Below are positions 45,746-59,435 of a DNA stretch of 64,000 nucleotides, in pieces (position 1 is the stretch's first letter; every line of letters starts with the position of its first letter). The notes beneath the pieces are model-generated. The model was not told where the DNA came from and did not search any database. It saw nothing but the letters and a program-made list of their open reading frames with translations. The position numbers and the translations under genes were made by a program. Source of the DNA: an uncultured Gemmatimonadales bacterium (GTDB taxonomy: Bacteria; Gemmatimonadota; Gemmatimonadetes; Gemmatimonadales; GWC2-71-9); NCBI GenBank assembly GCA_963825815.1, contig CAWGVB010000030.1, positions 10,287-74,286 of the forward strand, written 5' to 3'.

Positions 45746-47038
45746 GTGAAGCTGGTTGCCGGACATGCTGTTACCGGTGCACTTCTCCAAGCCGCGGAAC
45801 CGGCGAAAGCCACCGCAGCTCCCGTCCTGAAGAGCCGTCCGTCCGCTCCTGCCTACCGCCGGGTGCTAATTGTCGCACCCCAGCCATTCTACGAGGATCG
45901 GGGGACCCCGATTGCGGTTCGCCAGGTGGTTGAGGGGCTCAGCCAGCTCGGATATTCGGTCGATCTCCTCGCGTATCCTGTTGGCAGCGACATTCAAGTA
46001 CCGGGCGTGCGCCTGATGCGGACGGCAAATCCGCTTCGATTCAAGAGCGTTCCGGTAGGCCTTTCGGTGAAGAAGGTCCTGCTGGACATCCCACTCACAT
46101 TGGCGCTTCTGTCTCGCCTTCGCACCGGTGCATACTCTTGCATTCATGCCGTCGAAGAGGCGGCTTTCCCCGCTGTTCTGTTGGGTCGGCACTACAGAGT
46201 GCCGGTGATCTACGACATGCAGTCCAGCCTTCCCGAGCAGCTCGCCACACATCCCGGGTTAGGTGCCACACCCGTCCGATACCTATTGGAGCAGCTGGAA
46301 TCCTGGCTTCTGCGACGAGCCGACTTGGTCGTCAGCAGCGCCGGTCTGGCGAGCCGGGTACGCGAAGTCGCTCCTCAGACTCCGCTACATGAGTGGCAGT
46401 ATCCGAGCGTCATGGTTCCAGCCGCACGAGGCGACGCGGAGCGGCTTCGCCGGCGTCTCGCTATTCCACCGGGCCGGCCGGTTGTGCTCTATGGCGGGAC
46501 CTTTCAGAGCTATCAGGGACTGGGACAGCTGATCGAGGCCATCCCGGCGGTACGGGCGGTGGTACCGGACGCCACCTTCGTGCTGGTAGGAGCGGAGAAC
46601 GGAACTGGTGCGGCGGTTCGGGCTCAAGGAGCTGCGCTCCTCCAGTCGGGAGCCTTGCATGTCATCGATCGTCAACCACGGCACGAAATACCCGGCTACC
46701 TTGGTCTCGCCGACGTGTTGGTCTCGCCCCGCTCCTACGGCGGCAACCTTCCACTCAAGGTCTTCGACTACCTGGCGGCAGGCCGCCCCATCGTTGCCAC
46801 CGATATCCCGACGCATCGTACGGTGCTCAACGAAGACCGGGCGGTGCTCGTTCCCACCCAGAGCAGCGAGCTCGCGCGAGGAATCCTGAGTCTGCTGCTG
46901 GACCCGTCGCGCGCCGACCGCTTGGCTCGTGCCGGCCGCCGGTACGCGGAAGAGCACCTCGGGTGGGCGAGATTCGTCGACTCTCTGGGTAAGCTGTACG
47001 AGGCCGTGCACCAGCATGCGCCTGCGAAATCGGCCTGA
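45746..47038 (+). CDS. GT4-family (Glycos_transf_1) glycosyltransferase
   Basis: Intact 430-aa ORF (GTG start): RVLIVAPQPFYEDRGTPIAVRQVVEGLSQLGYSVDLLAYP...VVLYGGTFQSYQGLGQLIEA...FVLVGAENG...GLADVLVSPRSYGGNLPLKVFDYLAAGRPIVATDIPTHRTVL (E-x7-E-like region). Confidence 0.8.
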   Translation: MKLVAGHAVTGALLQAAEPAKATAAPVLKSRPSAPAYRRVLIVAPQPFYEDRGTPIAVRQVVEGLSQLGYSVDLLAYPVGSDIQVPGVRLMRTANPLRFKSVPVGLSVKKVLLDIPLTLALLSRLRTGAYSCIHAVEEAAFPAVLLGRHYRVPVIYDMQSSLPEQLATHPGLGATPVRYLLEQLESWLLRRADLVVSSAGLASRVREVAPQTPLHEWQYPSVMVPAARGDAERLRRRLAIPPGRPVVLYGGTFQSYQGLGQLIEAIPAVRAVVPDATFVLVGAENGTGAAVRAQGAALLQSGALHVIDRQPRHEIPGYLGLADVLVSPRSYGGNLPLKVFDYLAAGRPIVATDIPTHRTVLNEDRAVLVPTQSSELARGILSLLLDPSRADRLARAGRRYAEEHLGWARFVDSLGKLYEAVHQHAPAKSA

Positions 47039-47999
47039 GCTGATCGTGCCCCGCGCCAATATCGTCTCCGTGATCATTCCGGCCCGCAATGAAGCCCGCG
47101 GTATTCCCGCGGTCATCCAGGCCGTCCAGGCACAGAGTCCTGCCGGCTGGGATCTCGAGATCATCGTCGTCGATGACGGGTCGTCCGACGGAACAGCGGA
47201 CAGGGCTCGGGCCGCCGGCGCACAAGCCTTGGTACTCGAGTCCGGGAGCGAGGGCGGAAATCCGGCACGAGCCAGGAATCTCGGAGCGGCCGCAGCCAAG
47301 GGCGATCCTATCGTTTTTCTCGACGCTGACTGCATTCCCGAGTCAGGCTGGCTCGCCCGCTTGCTGGTGGCCCACGACGGGGGAGCAGCGGTGGTCGGGG
47401 GTGCGTTGGATCTGCCGCAGGGTGTGCCCCTCACGGCCCGCTGCGACTACTACTGCGGGTGGTATCACGTCCACTCCAAGCGACCCTCAGGGGCCGTTCC
47501 GAACCATCCCCCCGGCAACTTGAGCGTGCGCCGCCAGGTGTTCGCCTTGAGTAGCGGCTTTACCGAGCAACAGCCGGTAGCCTATGCCCATGAGGAGCTG
47601 GCCTGGCAGGGAGAAGTGCAGCGATCGGGTGGTGCGATCGTCTTCGAGCCTGCCGCGGTGGTCCGGCACTACAACCGGCCGGGCTTCGCCAACCTGCTCA
47701 AACGGAACTACCGCTGGGGCTACAGCGCCATCGAGAGTAAGGCGGCAACCAAGGCGGCCCGCATGGCATGGCTCTATCGCTATCCCGGGCTCCTGGTGGC
47801 GGCCAGCATTCCTCTGGCAATCGCCAGCACCGGCTACATCGTCGGCTGCTGGCTGCGCGCCGGTGTCCTGGAGCCACTGCTGATGTTGCCCGCGGTACTC
47901 GCCGCCCGGCTGGCCTACTCGATGGGCCTCGCCGCGGGTGGGGTGCGATGGATTCGCTACGGAACGCTCGCTCCTGCTACCAGGGCTCGTTGGGAATGA
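47016..47999 (+). CDS. GT2-family glycosyltransferase with C-terminal TM helices
   Basis: MRLRNRPELIVPRANIVSVIIPARNEARGIPAVIQAVQAQS...EIIVVDDGSSDGT...NPARARNLGAAAAKGDPIVFLDADCIPE. It overlaps the GT4 3' end by 23 nt. Confidence 0.8.
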   Translation: MRLRNRPELIVPRANIVSVIIPARNEARGIPAVIQAVQAQSPAGWDLEIIVVDDGSSDGTADRARAAGAQALVLESGSEGGNPARARNLGAAAAKGDPIVFLDADCIPESGWLARLLVAHDGGAAVVGGALDLPQGVPLTARCDYYCGWYHVHSKRPSGAVPNHPPGNLSVRRQVFALSSGFTEQQPVAYAHEELAWQGEVQRSGGAIVFEPAAVVRHYNRPGFANLLKRNYRWGYSAIESKAATKAARMAWLYRYPGLLVAASIPLAIASTGYIVGCWLRAGVLEPLLMLPAVLAARLAYSMGLAAGGVRWIRYGTLAPATRARWE

Positions 48000-57385: not shown

Positions 57386-58692
57386 GTGCCCGTACACCAG
57401 TCCTGGGGACGGTACCCCCGCGCCGAACACACCAGTGTCGTCCCGGTGCTCTGGCGTTCCGACCCGCTCGCGCTGTCTGAGGTGTCCGGGAAGCTGCTGC
57501 CATTCGCCTACGGACGCAGCTACGGCGACAGCTGCCTGAATGCCGGAGGCGCCCTGCTGGATGTCTCCGGATTACGCAGGTTCATCAGCTTCGATGACGC
57601 TCGCGGAGTTCTGCGCTGCGAGGCGGGGGCCACCTTGGCAGAAGTTCTGGCACTGATCGTCCCCCGGGGCTGGTTCGTTCCCGTGGTCCCCGGTACCAAG
57701 AGGGTATCGGTCGGCGGGGCAATCGCCAATGACGTTCACGGGAAAAATCACCACCGGGCCGGAACCTTCGGGGCGCATGTGACGTGCTTCGAGCTGCTGC
57801 GATCCACGGGCGAGCGACTTCTTTGCTCGCCGGAGCGCAACGTGGAGTTGTTCCGGGCCACGATCGGCGGGCTGGGCCTGACCGGCCTCATTCTCTGGGC
57901 CGAGTTCCGGCTCAAGAGAATACCCGGACCCCGGATCACCATGGATCGGATTCGGTTTTCCTGCCTGAGCGAGTTCCTACCAGCTCTCCCGCGACGACCA
58001 GGAATACGAATACACCGTTGCGTGGATCGACTGCCTGGCGCGGGGAAGAGCTCTGGGGCGGGGATTGTTCCTGCGGGGTGACCATGTCGCCGGAGCCGGC
58101 CGGGCGCAGCGCGACGACCGTCCGGCGATCACCGTTCCAGTCGATCTCCCTTCAGGCCTGATCGGCCGGGCCGCGACGAGGTTCTTCAATACGTTGTATT
58201 ATCACGCCCAGCTCCGAAGCACGCAGCGTAGAACGCTGTTCTACGAGCCGTTTTTCTTTCCGCTGGACGGTATCGGAGCCTGGAACCGGCTCTATGGAGA
58301 GAAGGGATTTCTGCAGTACCAATGTGTGACGGCGGGAAGACTCGGAGAGCGCGGTCGTGGACTTGCTGGAGCAGGTGGCGCGCTCGGGTGAAACTCCGTC
58401 GCTCGCCGTCCTCAAGAAGTTCGGCCGAATTCCCTCCCCCGGAATGCTCTCATTCCCCCGGCCAGGCATAACCCTCGCCATCGATTTTGCGATGCGGGGC
58501 TCCACCACCCTGAAGCTCCTCGAGCGACTCGATCATATTGTGGCCCAAGCCGGCGGAGCGGTCTACCCCGCCAAGGATGCGCGAATGAGTGGCCCAAGCT
58601 TTCAGCGCTTCTTTCCCAACTGGGAGTCATTCGCGTCGCAGATCGACCCCAAATTCTCCTCCTCGTTCTGGCGCCGTGTCTCTGCGGCATGA
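57386..58692 (+). pseudogene. dprE1: DprE1-like FAD-dependent decaprenylphosphoryl-beta-D-ribose 2'-oxidase homologue; about 3 frame changes
   Basis: ORFs 57356..58081, 58065..58391 and 58357..58692. Sequence: SWGRYPRAEH...LPFAYGRSYGDSCLNAGGALLDVSGL...WFVPVVPGTKRVSVGGAIANDVHGKNHHRAGTFGAHV...ELFRATIGGLGLTGLILWAEF...YEYTVAWIDC...FFFPLDGIGAWNRLYGEKGFLQYQCV...SLAVLKKFG...GGAVYPAKDARM. It parallels Rv3790 motifs ([38 protein letters not shown]). Confidence 0.8.
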
Positions 58693-59435
58693 CGCGCCCG
58701 CCAGGGTGCTCATCGTGGGCGCGACCTCGGCCATCGCGGGTGAAACGGCAAAGGAATTCGCCAAGAACGGGGCCCACCTTTTCCTGACCGGTCGGAATGC
58801 CGGCCGCCTGGCCGCGGTTGCAGACGACCTTCGAGTCCGGGGAGCGGCTCGGGTCGAGACAGCTATCCTGGATGTTGCCGATCTTGCCACCCAGGGCCCC
58901 ACGATCGAAGCGGCGTTCGCCACCCTTGGGGAGATTGACGTGGCACTGGTTGCGCATGGGACTCTTCCGAATCAGGAGCGTTGCCAGGAGCAGGTAGAGG
59001 AGACAGTGAAAGCGCTGCACGTCAATTTCACGGGGACCATCGCTCTGCTTACGCTGCTCGCAAATCGGCTGGAATCCCAGCGGCACGGCTGCCTTGCCGT
59101 CATCGGTTCCGTGGCCGGCAGCCGGGGCAGGCGGACGAACTATGTCTATGGTGCAGCCAAGGGAGGGGTCGAGATCTTCCTTCAGGGTCTCCGCGGCCGT
59201 TTGTTCCCGTGCAACGTGACTGTCCTGACGGTCAAACCGGGGTTCGTTGATACCCCGATGACCGCGGGAGCTAAGAAAGAATTTGCTCTTTGCCGATGCC
59301 GGACGCATTGGGCGCGGTATCCACCGTGCAATCGTGCGGCGCAAAGATGTCGTCTACCTACCCTGGTTCTGGCGTCCGATCATGGGCGTGCTTACCAGCC
59401 TACCGGAAATGGTGCTTAAACGGCTTCCCCTGTAG
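58689..59435 (+). pseudogene. dprE2: DprE2-like short-chain dehydrogenase/reductase (decaprenylphospho-2'-keto-ribose reductase homologue); 2 frame changes
   Basis: ATGA overlap with the dprE1-like stop. Sequence: RVLIVGATSAIAGETAKEFAKNGAHLFLTGRN...DVALVAHG...AVIGSVAGSRGRRTNYVYGAAKGGV...TVKPGFVDTPMT, with tail ...VVYLPWFWRPIMGVLTSLPEMVLKRLPL in a shifted frame. Compare the Rv3791 end ...VLRHIPRSIFRKLPI. Confidence 0.75.

What the first reader, a model, noticed from the sequence alone, without database searches (positions are those of the whole stretch)
45746..59435. 13.7-kb surface-glycan locus combining an ABC-transporter-dependent backbone operon with two lipid-carrier/GT-C decoration branches
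Gene order: GT4, GT2, GT2, Wzm, Wzt, GT2-with-4-TM (polyprenyl-P-hexose synthase type), GT-C-like, a convergent GT39/ArnT-like GT-C, then the FAD-ox/UbiA/DprE1/DprE2 module.
The first seven genes form one tightly packed operon. Overlaps lie at 47016/47038, 47996-47999, 48973-48976 and 50566-50569, and there is a 4-nt gap at 51721/51726.
The architecture implies cytoplasmic polymer synthesis, Wzm/Wzt export, then periplasmic addition of two different sugars from two different polyprenyl-phosphate donors (a hexose and an Araf-like pentose).
This logic resembles mycobacterial LAM/arabinogalactan assembly and Gtr-type O-antigen modification. I do not recognise this gene combination as a described system.
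No initiating phosphoglycosyl transferase (WecA/WbaP type), no Wzt carbohydrate-binding domain and no chain-length terminator are visible in the locus.
It directly follows the giant cyclic-glucan synthase gene, so about 23 kb of the window is envelope-glycan machinery.
Basis: partly seen in the sequence, partly recalled or inferred. Interest (0 to 1): 0.75.

Follow-up and report, generated by a model that had tools for sequence, protein, structure and literature searches.

The report
Gemmatimonadales surface-glycan locus with arabinose-type branch
A 12-gene cluster conserved in uncultured soil Gemmatimonadales joins an ABC-transporter sugar-polymer operon to two membrane enzymes that probably add a hexose and an arabinose-type pentose outside the cytoplasm; each part has known relatives, so it is a new variant, not a new kind of system.

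Summary
The 12 genes lie at 45746-59435 in the stated order, and the family assignments and gene junctions are confirmed. The same kind of insertion breaks the upstream glucan-synthase gene. The corrected genes show dN/dS of 0.05-0.23, so these are most likely assembly errors.

Both refutation tests fail. Both membrane proteins model as GT-C folds with invariant acidic residues after TM1. In 16 of 17 Gemmatimonadota loci with enough flank, all the locus's modules are present (GT4, Wzm/Wzt, GT2-TM type, PMT_2, FAD oxidoreductase and at least two of UbiA/DprE1/SDR). This holds even where the flanking genes differ.

UbiA, DprE1 and DprE2 are clear homologues of the mycobacterial enzymes. The GT2-TM protein resembles Dol-P-Man synthase and ArnC.

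The logic is already described: the Citrobacter youngae pentofuranose system of Kelly et al. 2024, the Streptococcus mutans SCC system with two Und-P-Glc/GT-C pairs, and mycobacterial arabinogalactan.

Four things are new:
- a hexose branch and an Araf-type branch in one locus in this phylum;
- a widespread GT-C family with no Pfam model;
- a conserved FAD oxidoreductase of unknown role;
- no flippase or phosphatase in the locus.

The acceptor and the donor-to-GT-C pairing remain inferred.

The parts
45746..47038 (+). GT4 glycosyltransferase, first gene of the backbone operon. The start is uncertain: relatives align from about 45821.
   Evidence: Pfam Glycos_transf_1 and Glyco_trans_4_4. 83% identical to the L002 orthologue. 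dN/dS 0.09 against L007.
47016..47999 (+). GT2 glycosyltransferase a, with a hydrophobic C-terminus. Its ATG overlaps the end of GT4 by 23 nt.
   Evidence: Pfam Glycos_transf_2, 8.5e-24. tblastn 80% over 326 aa. Codons read.
47996..48976 (+). GT2 glycosyltransferase b, joined to the previous gene by an ATGA overlap.
   Evidence: Pfam Glycos_transf_2, 5.3e-20. tblastn 81%. Codons read.
48973..49797 (+). Wzm-type ABC-2 permease.
   Evidence: Pfam ABC2_membrane. The orthologue's best NCBIfam match is the galactan export permease Wzm/RfbD, 69 bits against a cut-off of 380.
49751..50569 (+). Wzt-type ABC ATPase of 272 aa. It has the nucleotide-binding domain only, with no carbohydrate-binding module.
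   Evidence: Pfam ABC_tran at residues 64-195 and nothing else. Best NCBIfam matches are galactan export Wzt/RfbE and TagH, both below cut-off.
50566..51721 (+). GT2 with four C-terminal TM helices, of the polyprenyl-phosphate hexose synthase type (GtrB/ArnC/DPMS-like). The frame is broken by a +1 insertion near 50648.
   Evidence: Pfam Glycos_transf_2. Relatives carry PF26629 GT2_TM_C. NCBIfam matches AglJ, Dol-P-hexose transferase, PgfS and ArnC, all below cut-off. Top PDB hits are Pyrococcus Dol-P-Man synthase 5mlz and ArnC. Insertion shown.
51726..53439 (+). 570-aa GT-C-fold membrane glycosyltransferase of a family with no Pfam or NCBIfam model (called X570 here). The frame is broken by a +1 insertion near 52610.
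   Evidence: No Pfam hit even at E<=10. AF2 model has pLDDT 86.6 and pTM 0.87. All 23 Foldseek PDB hits with E<=1e-3 are GT-C enzymes: AglB, STT3, ArnT, ALG9/12, DPY19, AftA and PglB. D29, R31 and D33 after TM1 are invariant. The family has 488 representatives at E<=1e-30.
53376..54967 (-). 529-aa PMT_2-family GT-C glycosyltransferase (ArnT-like), convergent with X570 and overlapping it by 64 nt. Two +1 insertions lie near 53454 and 53483.
   Evidence: Pfam PMT_2. AF2 model has pLDDT 91.6. The top Foldseek hit is ArnT 5f15, E 5.7e-8, TM 0.59, followed by STT3, AftA, AftB and Emb. D27 is invariant and E28 nearly so, in the 'WADE' motif after TM1. 96% identical to intact P0001.
54968..55081 (.). 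114-nt divergent intergenic region between PMT_2 and the FAD-oxidoreductase operon. This is the likely promoter region.
   Evidence: Sequence read. No sigma-70 consensus match was found, so the promoter role is inferred from gene geometry only.
55082..56461 (+). FAD oxidoreductase of the amine-oxidase / PPOX / phytoene-desaturase superfamily. Its role is unknown and it is tightly conserved with the locus.
   Evidence: Pfam Amino_oxidase, 6e-28, full length. NCBIfam PRK07233 scores 194 against a cut-off of 252; HpnE scores 80. PDB matches cover the N-terminal FAD motif only. 71-97% identity across Gemmatimonadales. 25% identity, E 1e-16, to an FAD oxidoreductase inside a Burkholderia UbiA-DprE1-SDR-SDR-GtrA cluster.
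56458..57375 (+). UbiA-family polyprenyl-phosphate phosphoribosyltransferase (PPPRS/DPPRS type), without the fused HAD phosphatase domain.
   Evidence: Pfam UbiA. 1.1e-28 to Rv3806c structure 8j8j with the NDxxDxxxDRxHPxKRxRP motif aligned. NCBIfam PRK08238 scores 391 against a cut-off of 351, but only over model positions 187-479.
57356..58692 (+). DprE1-like FAD oxidase (polyprenyl-phosphoribose 2'-oxidase type). Two +1 insertions lie near 57979 and 58337.
   Evidence: Pfam FAD_binding_4. The orthologue matches M. smegmatis DprE1 4aut at 4.5e-69 over the full length; the Lys418-equivalent 'YPAKD' is kept and the benzothiazinone Cys is Ala. NCBIfam DprE1 scores 351 against a cut-off of 500. 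Frames shown.
58676..59435 (+). DprE2-like SDR reductase. A +1 insertion lies near 59271.
   Evidence: Pfam adh_short. The top PDB hit is DprE2, 8.5e-32 over the full length; the next best is 2.8e-17. NCBIfam PRK07102 scores 306 against a cut-off of 267; the DprE2 model scores 186 against 250.

Best explanation
This is a composite cell-envelope glycan locus, conserved as a unit in a lineage of uncultured Gemmatimonadales. It has three modules.

[quoted passage not shown] A primer made elsewhere starts the chain. Wzm/Wzt exports the glycan. Wzt has no carbohydrate-binding module, so export would not depend on a terminal cap.

**Module 2.** The GT2 protein with four TM helices makes a polyprenyl-phosphate hexose. 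The translationally coupled 570-aa GT-C enzyme (X570) transfers that hexose on the periplasmic face.

**Module 3.**
- An unidentified phosphatase removes the 5-phosphate.
- DprE1-like and DprE2-like enzymes epimerise C2 to give a polyprenyl-phosphate arabinofuranose-type donor.
- The PMT_2-family GT-C enzyme transfers this donor in the periplasm.
- The conserved FAD oxidoreductase acts somewhere in this branch, on the pentose or on the lipid. Its step is unknown.

**Shown here:** homology, folds, catalytic motifs and conserved synteny.

**Inferred:** the identity of the sugars, which GT-C uses which donor, that the acceptor is the Wzm/Wzt-exported polymer, and how the donors are flipped.

The seven frameshifts in the window are most likely sequence errors, not gene decay.
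For: - **Gene families.**
- **DPA-type trio.** UbiA matches Rv3806c at 1.1e-28 with the Asp-rich motif. DprE1-like matches DprE1 at 4.5e-69 over the full length with the catalytic Lys kept. The SDR's best PDB match is DprE2 at 8.5e-32, well clear of the next hit.
- **GT2-TM.** Its closest solved relatives are Dol-P-Man synthase and ArnC.
- **GT-C fold.** Both membrane proteins give confident AF2 models. Their significant Foldseek hits are exclusively GT-C enzymes. Acidic residues after TM1 are invariant.
- **Synteny.** In 16 of 17 Gemmatimonadota loci, GT4, Wzm/Wzt, GT2-TM type, PMT_2, FADox and at least two of UbiA/DprE1/SDR are all present. The unit sits between different flanking genes in different genomes.
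- **Donor pairing.** In other phyla the long GT2-TM gene sits next to X570, and a separate short GT2 sits next to the PMT_2 gene. In Gemmatimonadales the FADox-UbiA-DprE1-DprE2 operon occupies that second position.
- **Precedents.** Kelly et al. 2024 and S. mutans SCC.
- **Frameshifts as artefacts.** All seven are +1 insertions unique to the window. The neighbouring gene has them too. dN/dS is 0.05-0.23 for all 12 corrected genes, with no difference for the broken ones.
Against: - The locus has no flippase (GtrA, SMR, MATE or MOP) and no phosphatase (HAD or PAP2). Comparable clusters in Rhizobium, Burkholderia and a Binatia MAG do have them.
- Outside the phylum the GT-C/synthase pairs almost never travel with Wzm/Wzt: 1 of 27 loci. 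The acceptor therefore need not be the ABC-exported polymer.
- Variant Gemmatimonadales loci and a Thermodesulfobacteriota locus place X570 paralogues inside the FADox operon. This blurs the assignment of donors to GT-C enzymes.
- The DprE1 and DprE2 matches fall below NCBIfam equivalog cut-offs, so the product could be a pentose other than Araf.
- The FAD oxidoreductase has no assigned step.
- There are no experimental data, and no cultured organism was identified that carries the locus.
Confidence: 0.6

Rival explanations
1. The three modules are neighbours but do not share a substrate. One or both GT-C enzymes glycosylate something other than the exported polymer. Candidates are lipid A or LPS core (as ArnT, FlmK and RgtA-D do), a secreted or pilus protein (as TfpW and the PMTs do), or peptidoglycan.
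For: - In 26 of 27 loci from other phyla, X570 with its GT2 partner, often with a PMT_2 gene, occurs without Wzm/Wzt (gene orders).
- PMT_2 is transcribed on its own, convergent to the backbone operon.
- Its closest solved structure is ArnT, a lipid A transferase.
- Pseudomonas uses the same DPA-type donor for pilin, as cited.
Against: - In Gemmatimonadota the modules are translationally coupled: Wzt, GT2-TM and X570 are joined by a 4-nt overlap and a 4-nt gap.
- The modules co-occur in 16 of 17 loci.
- A separate, more canonical ArnC/ArnT-like pair exists elsewhere in the window at 19275-21727. Lipid A modification may therefore already be covered.
Confidence: 0.2
2. The locus makes a lipoglycan in the manner of mycobacterial LM/LAM, not a decorated O-antigen-like chain. 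The cytoplasmic GT4 and GT2 enzymes make only a short lipid-linked primer, which Wzm/Wzt flips. The GT-C enzymes then act processively as polymerases and build hexan and arabinan-type domains in the periplasm.
For: - There is no terminator, no Wzt CBM and only three small single-domain cytoplasmic GTs.
- Nine of 17 Gemmatimonadota loci carry extra X570 paralogues. Some also have a further unknown 583-aa membrane protein. This recalls the multiple Aft/Emb/Mpt enzymes.
- Foldseek hits include AftA, AftB, AftD, Emb and PimE.
Against: - Foldseek scores to the Emb/Aft enzymes are no better than those to ArnT or STT3.
- The window's version has only two GT-C genes.
- Nothing distinguishes processive from single-addition enzymes at this level of analysis.
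Confidence: 0.12
3. In this particular organism the locus is a decaying set of pseudogenes. The seven frameshifts are real, so no product is made.
For: Five of the 12 genes are out of frame in the sequence as given.
Against: - All seven events are +1 insertions with no deletions and no premature stops in the corrected frames.
- The same kind of event is scattered through the neighbouring glucan-synthase gene.
- Amino-acid identity after each shift equals that before it.
- dN/dS of the broken genes (0.05-0.23) matches that of the intact ones.
- All close relatives are intact.
Confidence: 0.05

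Closest known systems
Three-component extracytoplasmic pentofuranose glycosylation system of Citrobacter youngae O1/O2 (Kelly et al., PNAS 2024, PMC11127046)
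   Same: - The backbone is ABC-transporter (Wzm/Wzt) dependent and the priming enzyme is encoded elsewhere.
- A UbiA-type polyprenyl-phosphate phosphoribosyltransferase supplies the donor.
- An optional epimerase acts on the lipid-linked ribose; DprE1/E2 homologues do this in Araf-containing examples.
- A GT-C enzyme adds the pentofuranose in the periplasm.
   Different: - The UbiA protein here lacks the fused HAD phosphatase domain.
- No MATE or other flippase is encoded here.
- The GT-C candidates are a PMT_2-family protein and a family without any Pfam model. Membership of GT136 was not testable.
- The C. youngae system has a Wzt CBM and a terminator; this locus has neither.
- A second, hexose-type branch and an extra FAD oxidoreductase are present here.
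Streptococcus mutans SCC / group A carbohydrate side-chain machinery (PMC11754754)
   Same: - The backbone is exported by an ABC transporter.
- Two separate Und-P-sugar synthase (GT2) plus GT-C pairs sit in the same locus and add two different side chains.
- The flippases are not encoded in the locus and remain unidentified.
- PgfS of S. mutans is among the NCBIfam matches of the GT2-TM protein.
   Different: - Both streptococcal branches use glucose from UDP-Glc. Here one branch starts from PRPP through UbiA, DprE1 and DprE2.
- The streptococcal host is Gram-positive and the polymer is attached to peptidoglycan.
Mycobacterial arabinogalactan / LAM assembly (Rv3806c, DprE1, DprE2, Rv3781/Rv3783 Wzm-Wzt, Aft/Emb GT-C enzymes, Ppm1)
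   Same: - UbiA, DprE1 and DprE2 are homologous to the mycobacterial enzymes.
- The best NCBIfam matches for Wzm and Wzt are the galactan exporter subunits.
- Periplasmic GT-C enzymes use polyprenyl-phosphate donors, both a hexose donor and a pentose donor.
   Different: - Scores are below the equivalog cut-offs.
- There is no Rv3807c-type phosphatase and no GtrA-like Rv3789.
- The GT-C enzymes are not detectably related in sequence to Aft or Emb.
- The host is a diderm of another phylum.
- Mycobacteria have no counterpart of the FAD amine-oxidase-like protein.
Gtr-type O-antigen glucosylation (GtrA/GtrB/Gtr*) and ArnC/ArnT lipid A modification
   Same: A GT2 polyprenyl-phosphate sugar synthase is followed by a GT-C transferase. 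ArnT is the best structural match of the PMT_2 protein, and ArnC is among the best matches of GT2-TM.
   Different: There is no GtrA or ArnE/F flippase. X570 has no sequence similarity to known Gtr* or ArnT proteins. The GT2 has four C-terminal TM helices, like archaeal Dol-P-Man synthase.

Membership tests
Three-component pentofuranose glycosylation system (Kelly et al. 2024) | UbiA-type polyprenyl-phosphate phosphoribosyltransferase (PPPRS) | tested here: met
   NCBIfam PRK08238 scores 391 bits against a cut-off of 351. The match to Rv3806c structure 8j8j is 1.1e-28 with the Asp-rich motif aligned.
Three-component pentofuranose glycosylation system (Kelly et al. 2024) | Phosphoribose 5-phosphatase, either a fused HAD/PRP domain or a separate enzyme | tested here: not met
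   The UbiA protein covers only positions 187-479 of the 482-position fusion model. No HAD or PAP2 gene is present in the locus or in intact relatives. One may be encoded elsewhere in the genome.
Three-component pentofuranose glycosylation system (Kelly et al. 2024) | Dedicated flippase for the lipid-linked donor (MATE, GtrA or SMR) | tested here: not met
   None of the 12 genes has such a domain. Comparable clusters have one: GtrA in Rhizobium and Burkholderia and a Polysacc_synt protein in a Binatia MAG.
Three-component pentofuranose glycosylation system (Kelly et al. 2024) | GT-C transferase of CAZy family GT136 | not testable with these tools
   The GT-C fold is shown for both candidates. 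No GT136 sequence or model was available. The PMT_2 Pfam match suggests a GT39/GT83-like clan instead.
DPA (polyprenyl-phospho-arabinofuranose) pathway | DprE1: FAD-dependent 2'-oxidase with the catalytic lysine | tested here: inconclusive
   Full-length match to DprE1 at 4.5e-69, with the Lys418 equivalent conserved. The NCBIfam equivalog model scores 351 bits against a cut-off of 500. It is a homologue; the same activity is not proven.
DPA (polyprenyl-phospho-arabinofuranose) pathway | DprE2: SDR 2'-keto reductase | tested here: inconclusive
   The best PDB match is DprE2 at 8.5e-32; the next hit is 2.8e-17. The NCBIfam DprE2 model scores 186 against a cut-off of 250, whereas the generic SDR model PRK07102 passes.
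ABC-transporter-dependent glycan assembly (Wzm/Wzt) | ABC-2 permease plus ATPase encoded with cytoplasmic glycosyltransferases | tested here: met
   Pfam ABC2_membrane and ABC_tran lie directly after GT4, GT2 and GT2. The arrangement is conserved in 16 of 17 Gemmatimonadota loci.
ABC-transporter-dependent glycan assembly (Wzm/Wzt) | Initiating phosphoglycosyl transferase; terminator with Wzt CBM (in the capped subtype) | tested here: not met
   All are absent from the locus. This is usual for the uncapped subtype and for systems primed by a WecA encoded elsewhere, as stated.
GT-C fold glycosyltransferases (for the 570-aa protein) | Multi-TM GT-C architecture with a periplasmic loop after TM1 bearing the catalytic acid | tested here: met
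   AF2 pTM is 0.87. All 23 Foldseek hits with E<=1e-3 are GT-C enzymes. D29 and D33 are invariant immediately after TM1. There is no sequence-level match to any Pfam, NCBIfam or PDB entry.
PMT_2 / ArnT-like GT-C (for the 529-aa protein) | PMT_2 domain, ArnT-like fold and a DE-type motif in loop 1 | tested here: met
   PMT_2 scores 53 bits against a cut-off of 26. ArnT 5f15 gives TM 0.59. D27 is invariant and E28 is at least 90% conserved. The acceptor and donor are unknown.
GtrB / DPMS-type polyprenyl-phosphate glycosyltransferase (for GT2-TM) | GT-A domain with a DxD motif plus C-terminal TM helices, and similarity to characterised synthases | tested here: met
   Glycos_transf_2 with GT2_TM_C in relatives. 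Matches AglJ, Dol-P-hexose transferase and ArnC and DPMS 5mlz. The 'GDADD' motif and four hydrophobic segments are visible in the translation. Sugar specificity was not determinable.

The most novel reading that the evidence does not exclude
The extra, strictly conserved FAD oxidoreductase may change the chemistry of the pentose branch. It works beside DprE1 and DprE2, and a distant homologue sits in a Burkholderia UbiA-DprE1-SDR-SDR cluster. The donor might then not be plain Araf. It could be a doubly epimerised or otherwise oxidised pentofuranose, for example lyxofuranose, which Kelly et al. note has never been found in any glycan. It would be delivered by a previously unclassified GT-C family. 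Gemmatimonadota would then build a heteropolymer in a diderm envelope that resembles arabinogalactan or LAM in assembly logic but is chemically new.
Probability: 0.1. Interest if true: 0.75.

Novelty: new variant of a known kind. Interest (0 to 1): 0.45.

Why it matters
Gemmatimonadota are abundant in soil, and nothing is known about their surface glycans. This locus predicts that one lineage makes a polymer carrying a D-arabinofuranose-type sugar through the pathway that is a drug target in tuberculosis.

It also defines a widespread GT-C family that is not annotated, with 488 representatives at E<=1e-30. The family's recurrent partner is a Dol-P-Man-synthase-like GT2.

It points to an FAD enzyme that recurs in pentofuranose-donor clusters and has no assigned step.

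It adds another locus in which no flippase for the lipid-linked donors is encoded, an open question also raised for streptococcal SCC.

The practical lesson is that this window's sequence has about one spurious inserted base per 0.4-2 kb. Gene calls from it need frameshift-aware handling.

Tried and rejected
- **Promoter and terminator scan of 45300-60400.** No promoter-like site was found, and terminator-like sites were no more frequent than in shuffled sequence. This says nothing about operon boundaries.
- **Rfam and tRNA scans of the window.** Nothing found.
- **Look-up of the window's own FADox gene call.** It is not on record, so the source assembly could not be identified.
- **Phage collection searched with UbiA**, to reach the phage-borne system mentioned by Kelly et al. 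It returned one unannotated 6.6-kb record at 34% identity and was not pursued.
- **Plasmid contexts in Azospirillum and Granulicella.** These were uninformative. Rhizobium and Burkholderia were useful.
- **The 518-aa hypothetical protein next to the Rhizobium DPA-type genes.** It shows no BLASTP similarity to X570 or PMT_2.
- **The extra 583-aa protein of variant loci.** It is unrelated to X570 by hhalign and has no Pfam hit.
- **X570 against PMT_2 profiles.** There is only a weak local match, 'YPPLLP..GTSD' against 'SPPLYY..GTSD'. They are not paralogues at the sequence level.
- **FADox as a UDP-galactopyranose mutase (Glf analogue).** Rejected: there is no GLF domain, and the match is a full-length Amino_oxidase profile.
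- **Literature searches linking Gemmatimonadetes with arabinofuranose or DprE1.** Nothing relevant was found.

Full report
**What is in the sequence**

The window is high-GC DNA (62-71% GC). It comes from an uncultured Gemmatimonadales bacterium. The PMT_2 protein of the locus is 96-89% identical to proteins of Gemmatimonadales MAGs. The nearest genome record, MFD00392.bin.1.1, is 91% identical in DNA across 41.7-63.5 kb of the window.

In order, the genes are:
- GT4;
- two GT2 genes;
- Wzm (ABC2_membrane);
- Wzt (ABC_tran only, 272 aa);
- a GT2 with a hydrophobic C-terminus;
- a membrane protein with no Pfam match;
- a convergent PMT_2 gene;
- a full-length Amino_oxidase-type FAD protein;
- UbiA;
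- an FAD_binding_4 protein;
- an SDR.

The outer limits 45746 and 59435 coincide with the limits of the conserved unit in relatives.

Five of the 12 genes are not open in the window as given. tblastn with the intact proteins of a 78%-identical contig (L002) splits them as follows:

| Gene | Number of frames |
|---|---|
| GT2-TM | 2 |
| 570-aa gene | 2 |
| PMT_2 | 2 |
| DprE1-like | 3 |
| SDR | 2 |

I aligned the DNA to six independent relatives. These include short-read MAGs and a 95%-identical Logan contig. Seven single-base insertions are unique to the window, at about 50648, 52610, 53454, 53483, 57979, 58337 and 59271. There are no uncompensated deletions.

The same type of event occurs in the upstream gene at 42255, 42581, 42782, 43166 and 44177. 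After the seven bases are removed, all 12 genes are open. Their dN/dS against L007 is 0.05-0.23. The broken genes do not differ from the intact ones.

I conclude that these are sequence or assembly errors spread over the whole window. They are not decay of this locus. Real, very recent pseudogenisation cannot be excluded without the reads.

**Are the two candidates GT-C enzymes?**

The 570-aa protein, called X570 here, has no Pfam or NCBIfam match even at E<=10. A profile built from it matches no PDB sequence.

An AlphaFold2 model built on 36 homologues is confident, with pLDDT 86.6 and pTM 0.87. All 23 Foldseek PDB hits with E<=1e-3 are GT-C enzymes: AglB, STT3, ArnT, ALG9/12, DPY19, AftA and PglB. 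D29, R31 and D33 lie directly after TM1 and are invariant in the alignment.

The PMT_2 protein models at pLDDT 91.6. Its best structural match is ArnT at TM 0.59. STT3, AftA, AftB, ALG9, Pmt4 and Emb follow. D27 is invariant and E28 nearly so, in 'WADE' after TM1.

The refutation test therefore fails: both are GT-C-fold proteins with the expected acidic loop. X570 belongs to a sizeable unannotated family. Among 1.84 billion cluster representatives, 488 match at E<=1e-30 and 1825 at E<=1e-10.

**Is the locus syntenic?**

This was the second refutation test. Contigs carrying PMT_2 orthologues of 78%, 69% and 61% identity hold the same genes in the same order, all intact. In those contigs the unit lies between PolX/HhH-GPD and a peptidase M28 gene. 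In the window and its two closest relatives it lies between the glucan synthase and an amino-acid permease. The unit therefore moves as a block.

A scan of one genome per species with the X570 profile returned 77 loci. The table counts loci with at least 8 kb on each side.

| Feature present | Gemmatimonadota (17 loci) | Other phyla (27 loci) |
|---|---|---|
| GT2-TM type | 17 | 19 (within 3 kb) |
| PMT_2 | 17 | 13 |
| At least two of UbiA/DprE1/SDR | 16 | 1 |
| FAD oxidoreductase | 16 | 3 |
| Wzm/Wzt | 16 | 1 |
| GT4 | 16 | 2 |

The other phyla are Nitrospirota, Verrucomicrobiota, Acidobacteriota, Planctomycetota, Methylomirabilota, Myxococcota, Binatia and Thermodesulfobacteriota.

The 12-gene composite is thus specific to Gemmatimonadota. 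The pair X570 plus GT2-TM, often with PMT_2, is an older and broader module.

**The pentose branch**
- **UbiA.** The orthologue matches the solved Rv3806c structure at 1.1e-28, with the NDxxDxxxDRxHPxKRxRP motif aligned. It passes the NCBIfam model PRK08238, but only over the UbiA half of that model. It lacks the N-terminal phosphatase domain.
- **DprE1-like.** The FAD_binding_4 protein aligns over its whole length with DprE1 at 4.5e-69. The catalytic lysine is kept. The benzothiazinone-reactive cysteine is alanine.
- **DprE2-like.** The SDR's best PDB match is DprE2 at 8.5e-32, fifteen orders of magnitude ahead of the next hit.
- Both epimerase matches fall below the NCBIfam equivalog cut-offs. 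Homology is firm. Identical chemistry is inferred.

**The FAD oxidoreductase**

This protein belongs to the amine-oxidase/PPOX/phytoene-desaturase superfamily. It is among the most conserved proteins of the locus, at 71-97% identity across Gemmatimonadales.

A distant homologue (25% identity, E 1e-16) lies inside a Burkholderia stagnalis plasmid cluster with the order UbiA, DprE1-like, SDR, SDR, FAD oxidoreductase, GtrA. This suggests a recurrent accessory role in this pathway. Its reaction is unknown.

**The hexose branch**

The GT2-TM protein matches AglJ, a haloarchaeal Dol-P-hexose transferase, PgfS and ArnC in NCBIfam, all below cut-off. Its closest solved relatives are the four-TM Pyrococcus Dol-P-Man synthase and ArnC. 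It is joined to Wzt by a 4-nt overlap and separated from X570 by a 4-nt gap.

**Which GT-C uses which donor?**

In other phyla the long GT2-TM gene lies beside X570. A second, shorter GT2, 28-31% identical to GT2-TM, lies beside the PMT_2 gene. In Gemmatimonadales the FADox-UbiA-DprE1-DprE2 operon holds that second position.

This favours two pairings: X570 with the hexose donor, and PMT_2 with the pentose donor. However, nine of the 17 Gemmatimonadota loci carry extra X570 paralogues. In variant loci, and in one Thermodesulfobacteriota locus, an extra X570 gene sits at the head of, or just after, the FADox gene. The pairing is therefore a best guess, not a result.

**What is missing**

No flippase and no phosphatase are encoded in the locus or in its intact relatives. 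Comparable clusters do encode them:
- GtrA and a HAD-UbiA fusion in Rhizobium;
- GtrA in Burkholderia;
- a Polysacc_synt (MOP) protein in a Binatia MAG.

Either these functions are supplied from elsewhere in the genome, or a protein in the locus covers them. I have no evidence for either option.

**Comparison with known systems**

This is the pathway that Kelly et al. established for Citrobacter youngae O1/O2. That pathway has a UbiA-type synthase, a flippase and a GT-C enzyme, and it has DprE1/E2 homologues in Araf-containing examples. The authors state that such systems are widespread, some in unknown glycans.

An ABC-exported backbone with two separate Und-P-sugar synthase/GT-C pairs, and no flippase in the locus, is described for S. 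mutans SCC. Mycobacterial arabinogalactan and LAM supply the enzyme homologues.

Five features make this locus a variant and not a copy:
- hexose and Araf-type branches are combined in one conserved unit, in a phylum whose glycans are unstudied;
- one of the GT-C genes belongs to an unannotated family;
- UbiA has no fused phosphatase domain;
- the locus encodes no dedicated flippase;
- an extra conserved FAD oxidoreductase is present.

**Verdict**

The novelty claim is overstated. I rate it a new variant of a known kind, of moderate interest.

Noticed in passing
window 42255, 42581, 42782, 43166, 44177, 50648, 52610, 53454, 53483, 57979, 58337, 59271: Single-base insertions relative to all close relatives are scattered through coding sequence, about one per 0.4-2 kb. 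None of the four inspected base by base (50648, 52610, 53454, 53483) lies in a homopolymer run. They fragment many genes, and the overlapping same-strand ORFs seen across the whole window suggest the problem is window-wide.
   Followed up: yes
window 19275-21727 (- strand): A separate pair lies about 25 kb upstream. It consists of an ArnC-like GT2 (20924-21727) and an ArnT-like GT-C (19275-20690) that matches Pfam PMT_2 and PMT and carries the motif 'IDETRY'. It is unrelated at BLAST level to the locus proteins and may be a lipid A or core modification unit.
   Followed up: partly
window ~36700-45560 (+ strand): The upstream giant gene carries Glycoamylase, two GH94 supersandwich domains and a GH94 catalytic domain, as cyclic beta-1,2-glucan synthases do. 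It is split over several frames by the insertions, and its N-terminal half gave no Pfam hit. It adjoins the locus only in the window's closest relatives (L007, L015), not in L002-L005.
   Followed up: partly
L005 6553-9973; L014, L019, L021, L023, L024, L027, L031-L036, L038: Many Gemmatimonadales relatives carry two extra genes between PMT_2 and the FAD oxidoreductase. One is an X570 paralogue at about 42% identity. The other is a 583-aa protein with no Pfam hit and no relation to X570. Other relatives have an extra GT2 between Wzt and GT2-TM.
   Followed up: partly
L028, L052, L057, L077, L081: The GT2-TM protein is 65-73% identical in Nitrospirota and in a deltaproteobacterial MAG. The neighbouring X570 is only 40-52% identical there. 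This points to unusually strong constraint on the synthase, or to its horizontal transfer.
   Followed up: no
L087 (Burkholderia stagnalis plasmid NZ_CP156687.1, 513884-532732): This locus has the order UbiA (HAD fusion), DprE1-like, SDR, second SDR, NAD(P)/FAD oxidoreductase, GtrA, and it sits next to isonitrile-synthase genes. Two oxidase/reductase pairs could mean a double epimerisation of the lipid-linked pentose.
   Followed up: partly
window 57356-58692 (DprE1-like); alignment: The cysteine that benzothiazinones attack in mycobacterial DprE1 is alanine in this family. The catalytic lysine is kept.
   Followed up: no
window 15712-19265 and 24555-32768: Other neighbours include TonB-dependent receptor and SusD-like fragments (15.7-18.4 kb) and a PEP-mutase-family fragment (18801-19265) next to the ArnT-like gene. 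There are also a PP2C phosphatase, two Ser/Thr kinase genes (one with HAMP, one with PD40 repeats) and a Kelch-repeat protein.
   Followed up: no
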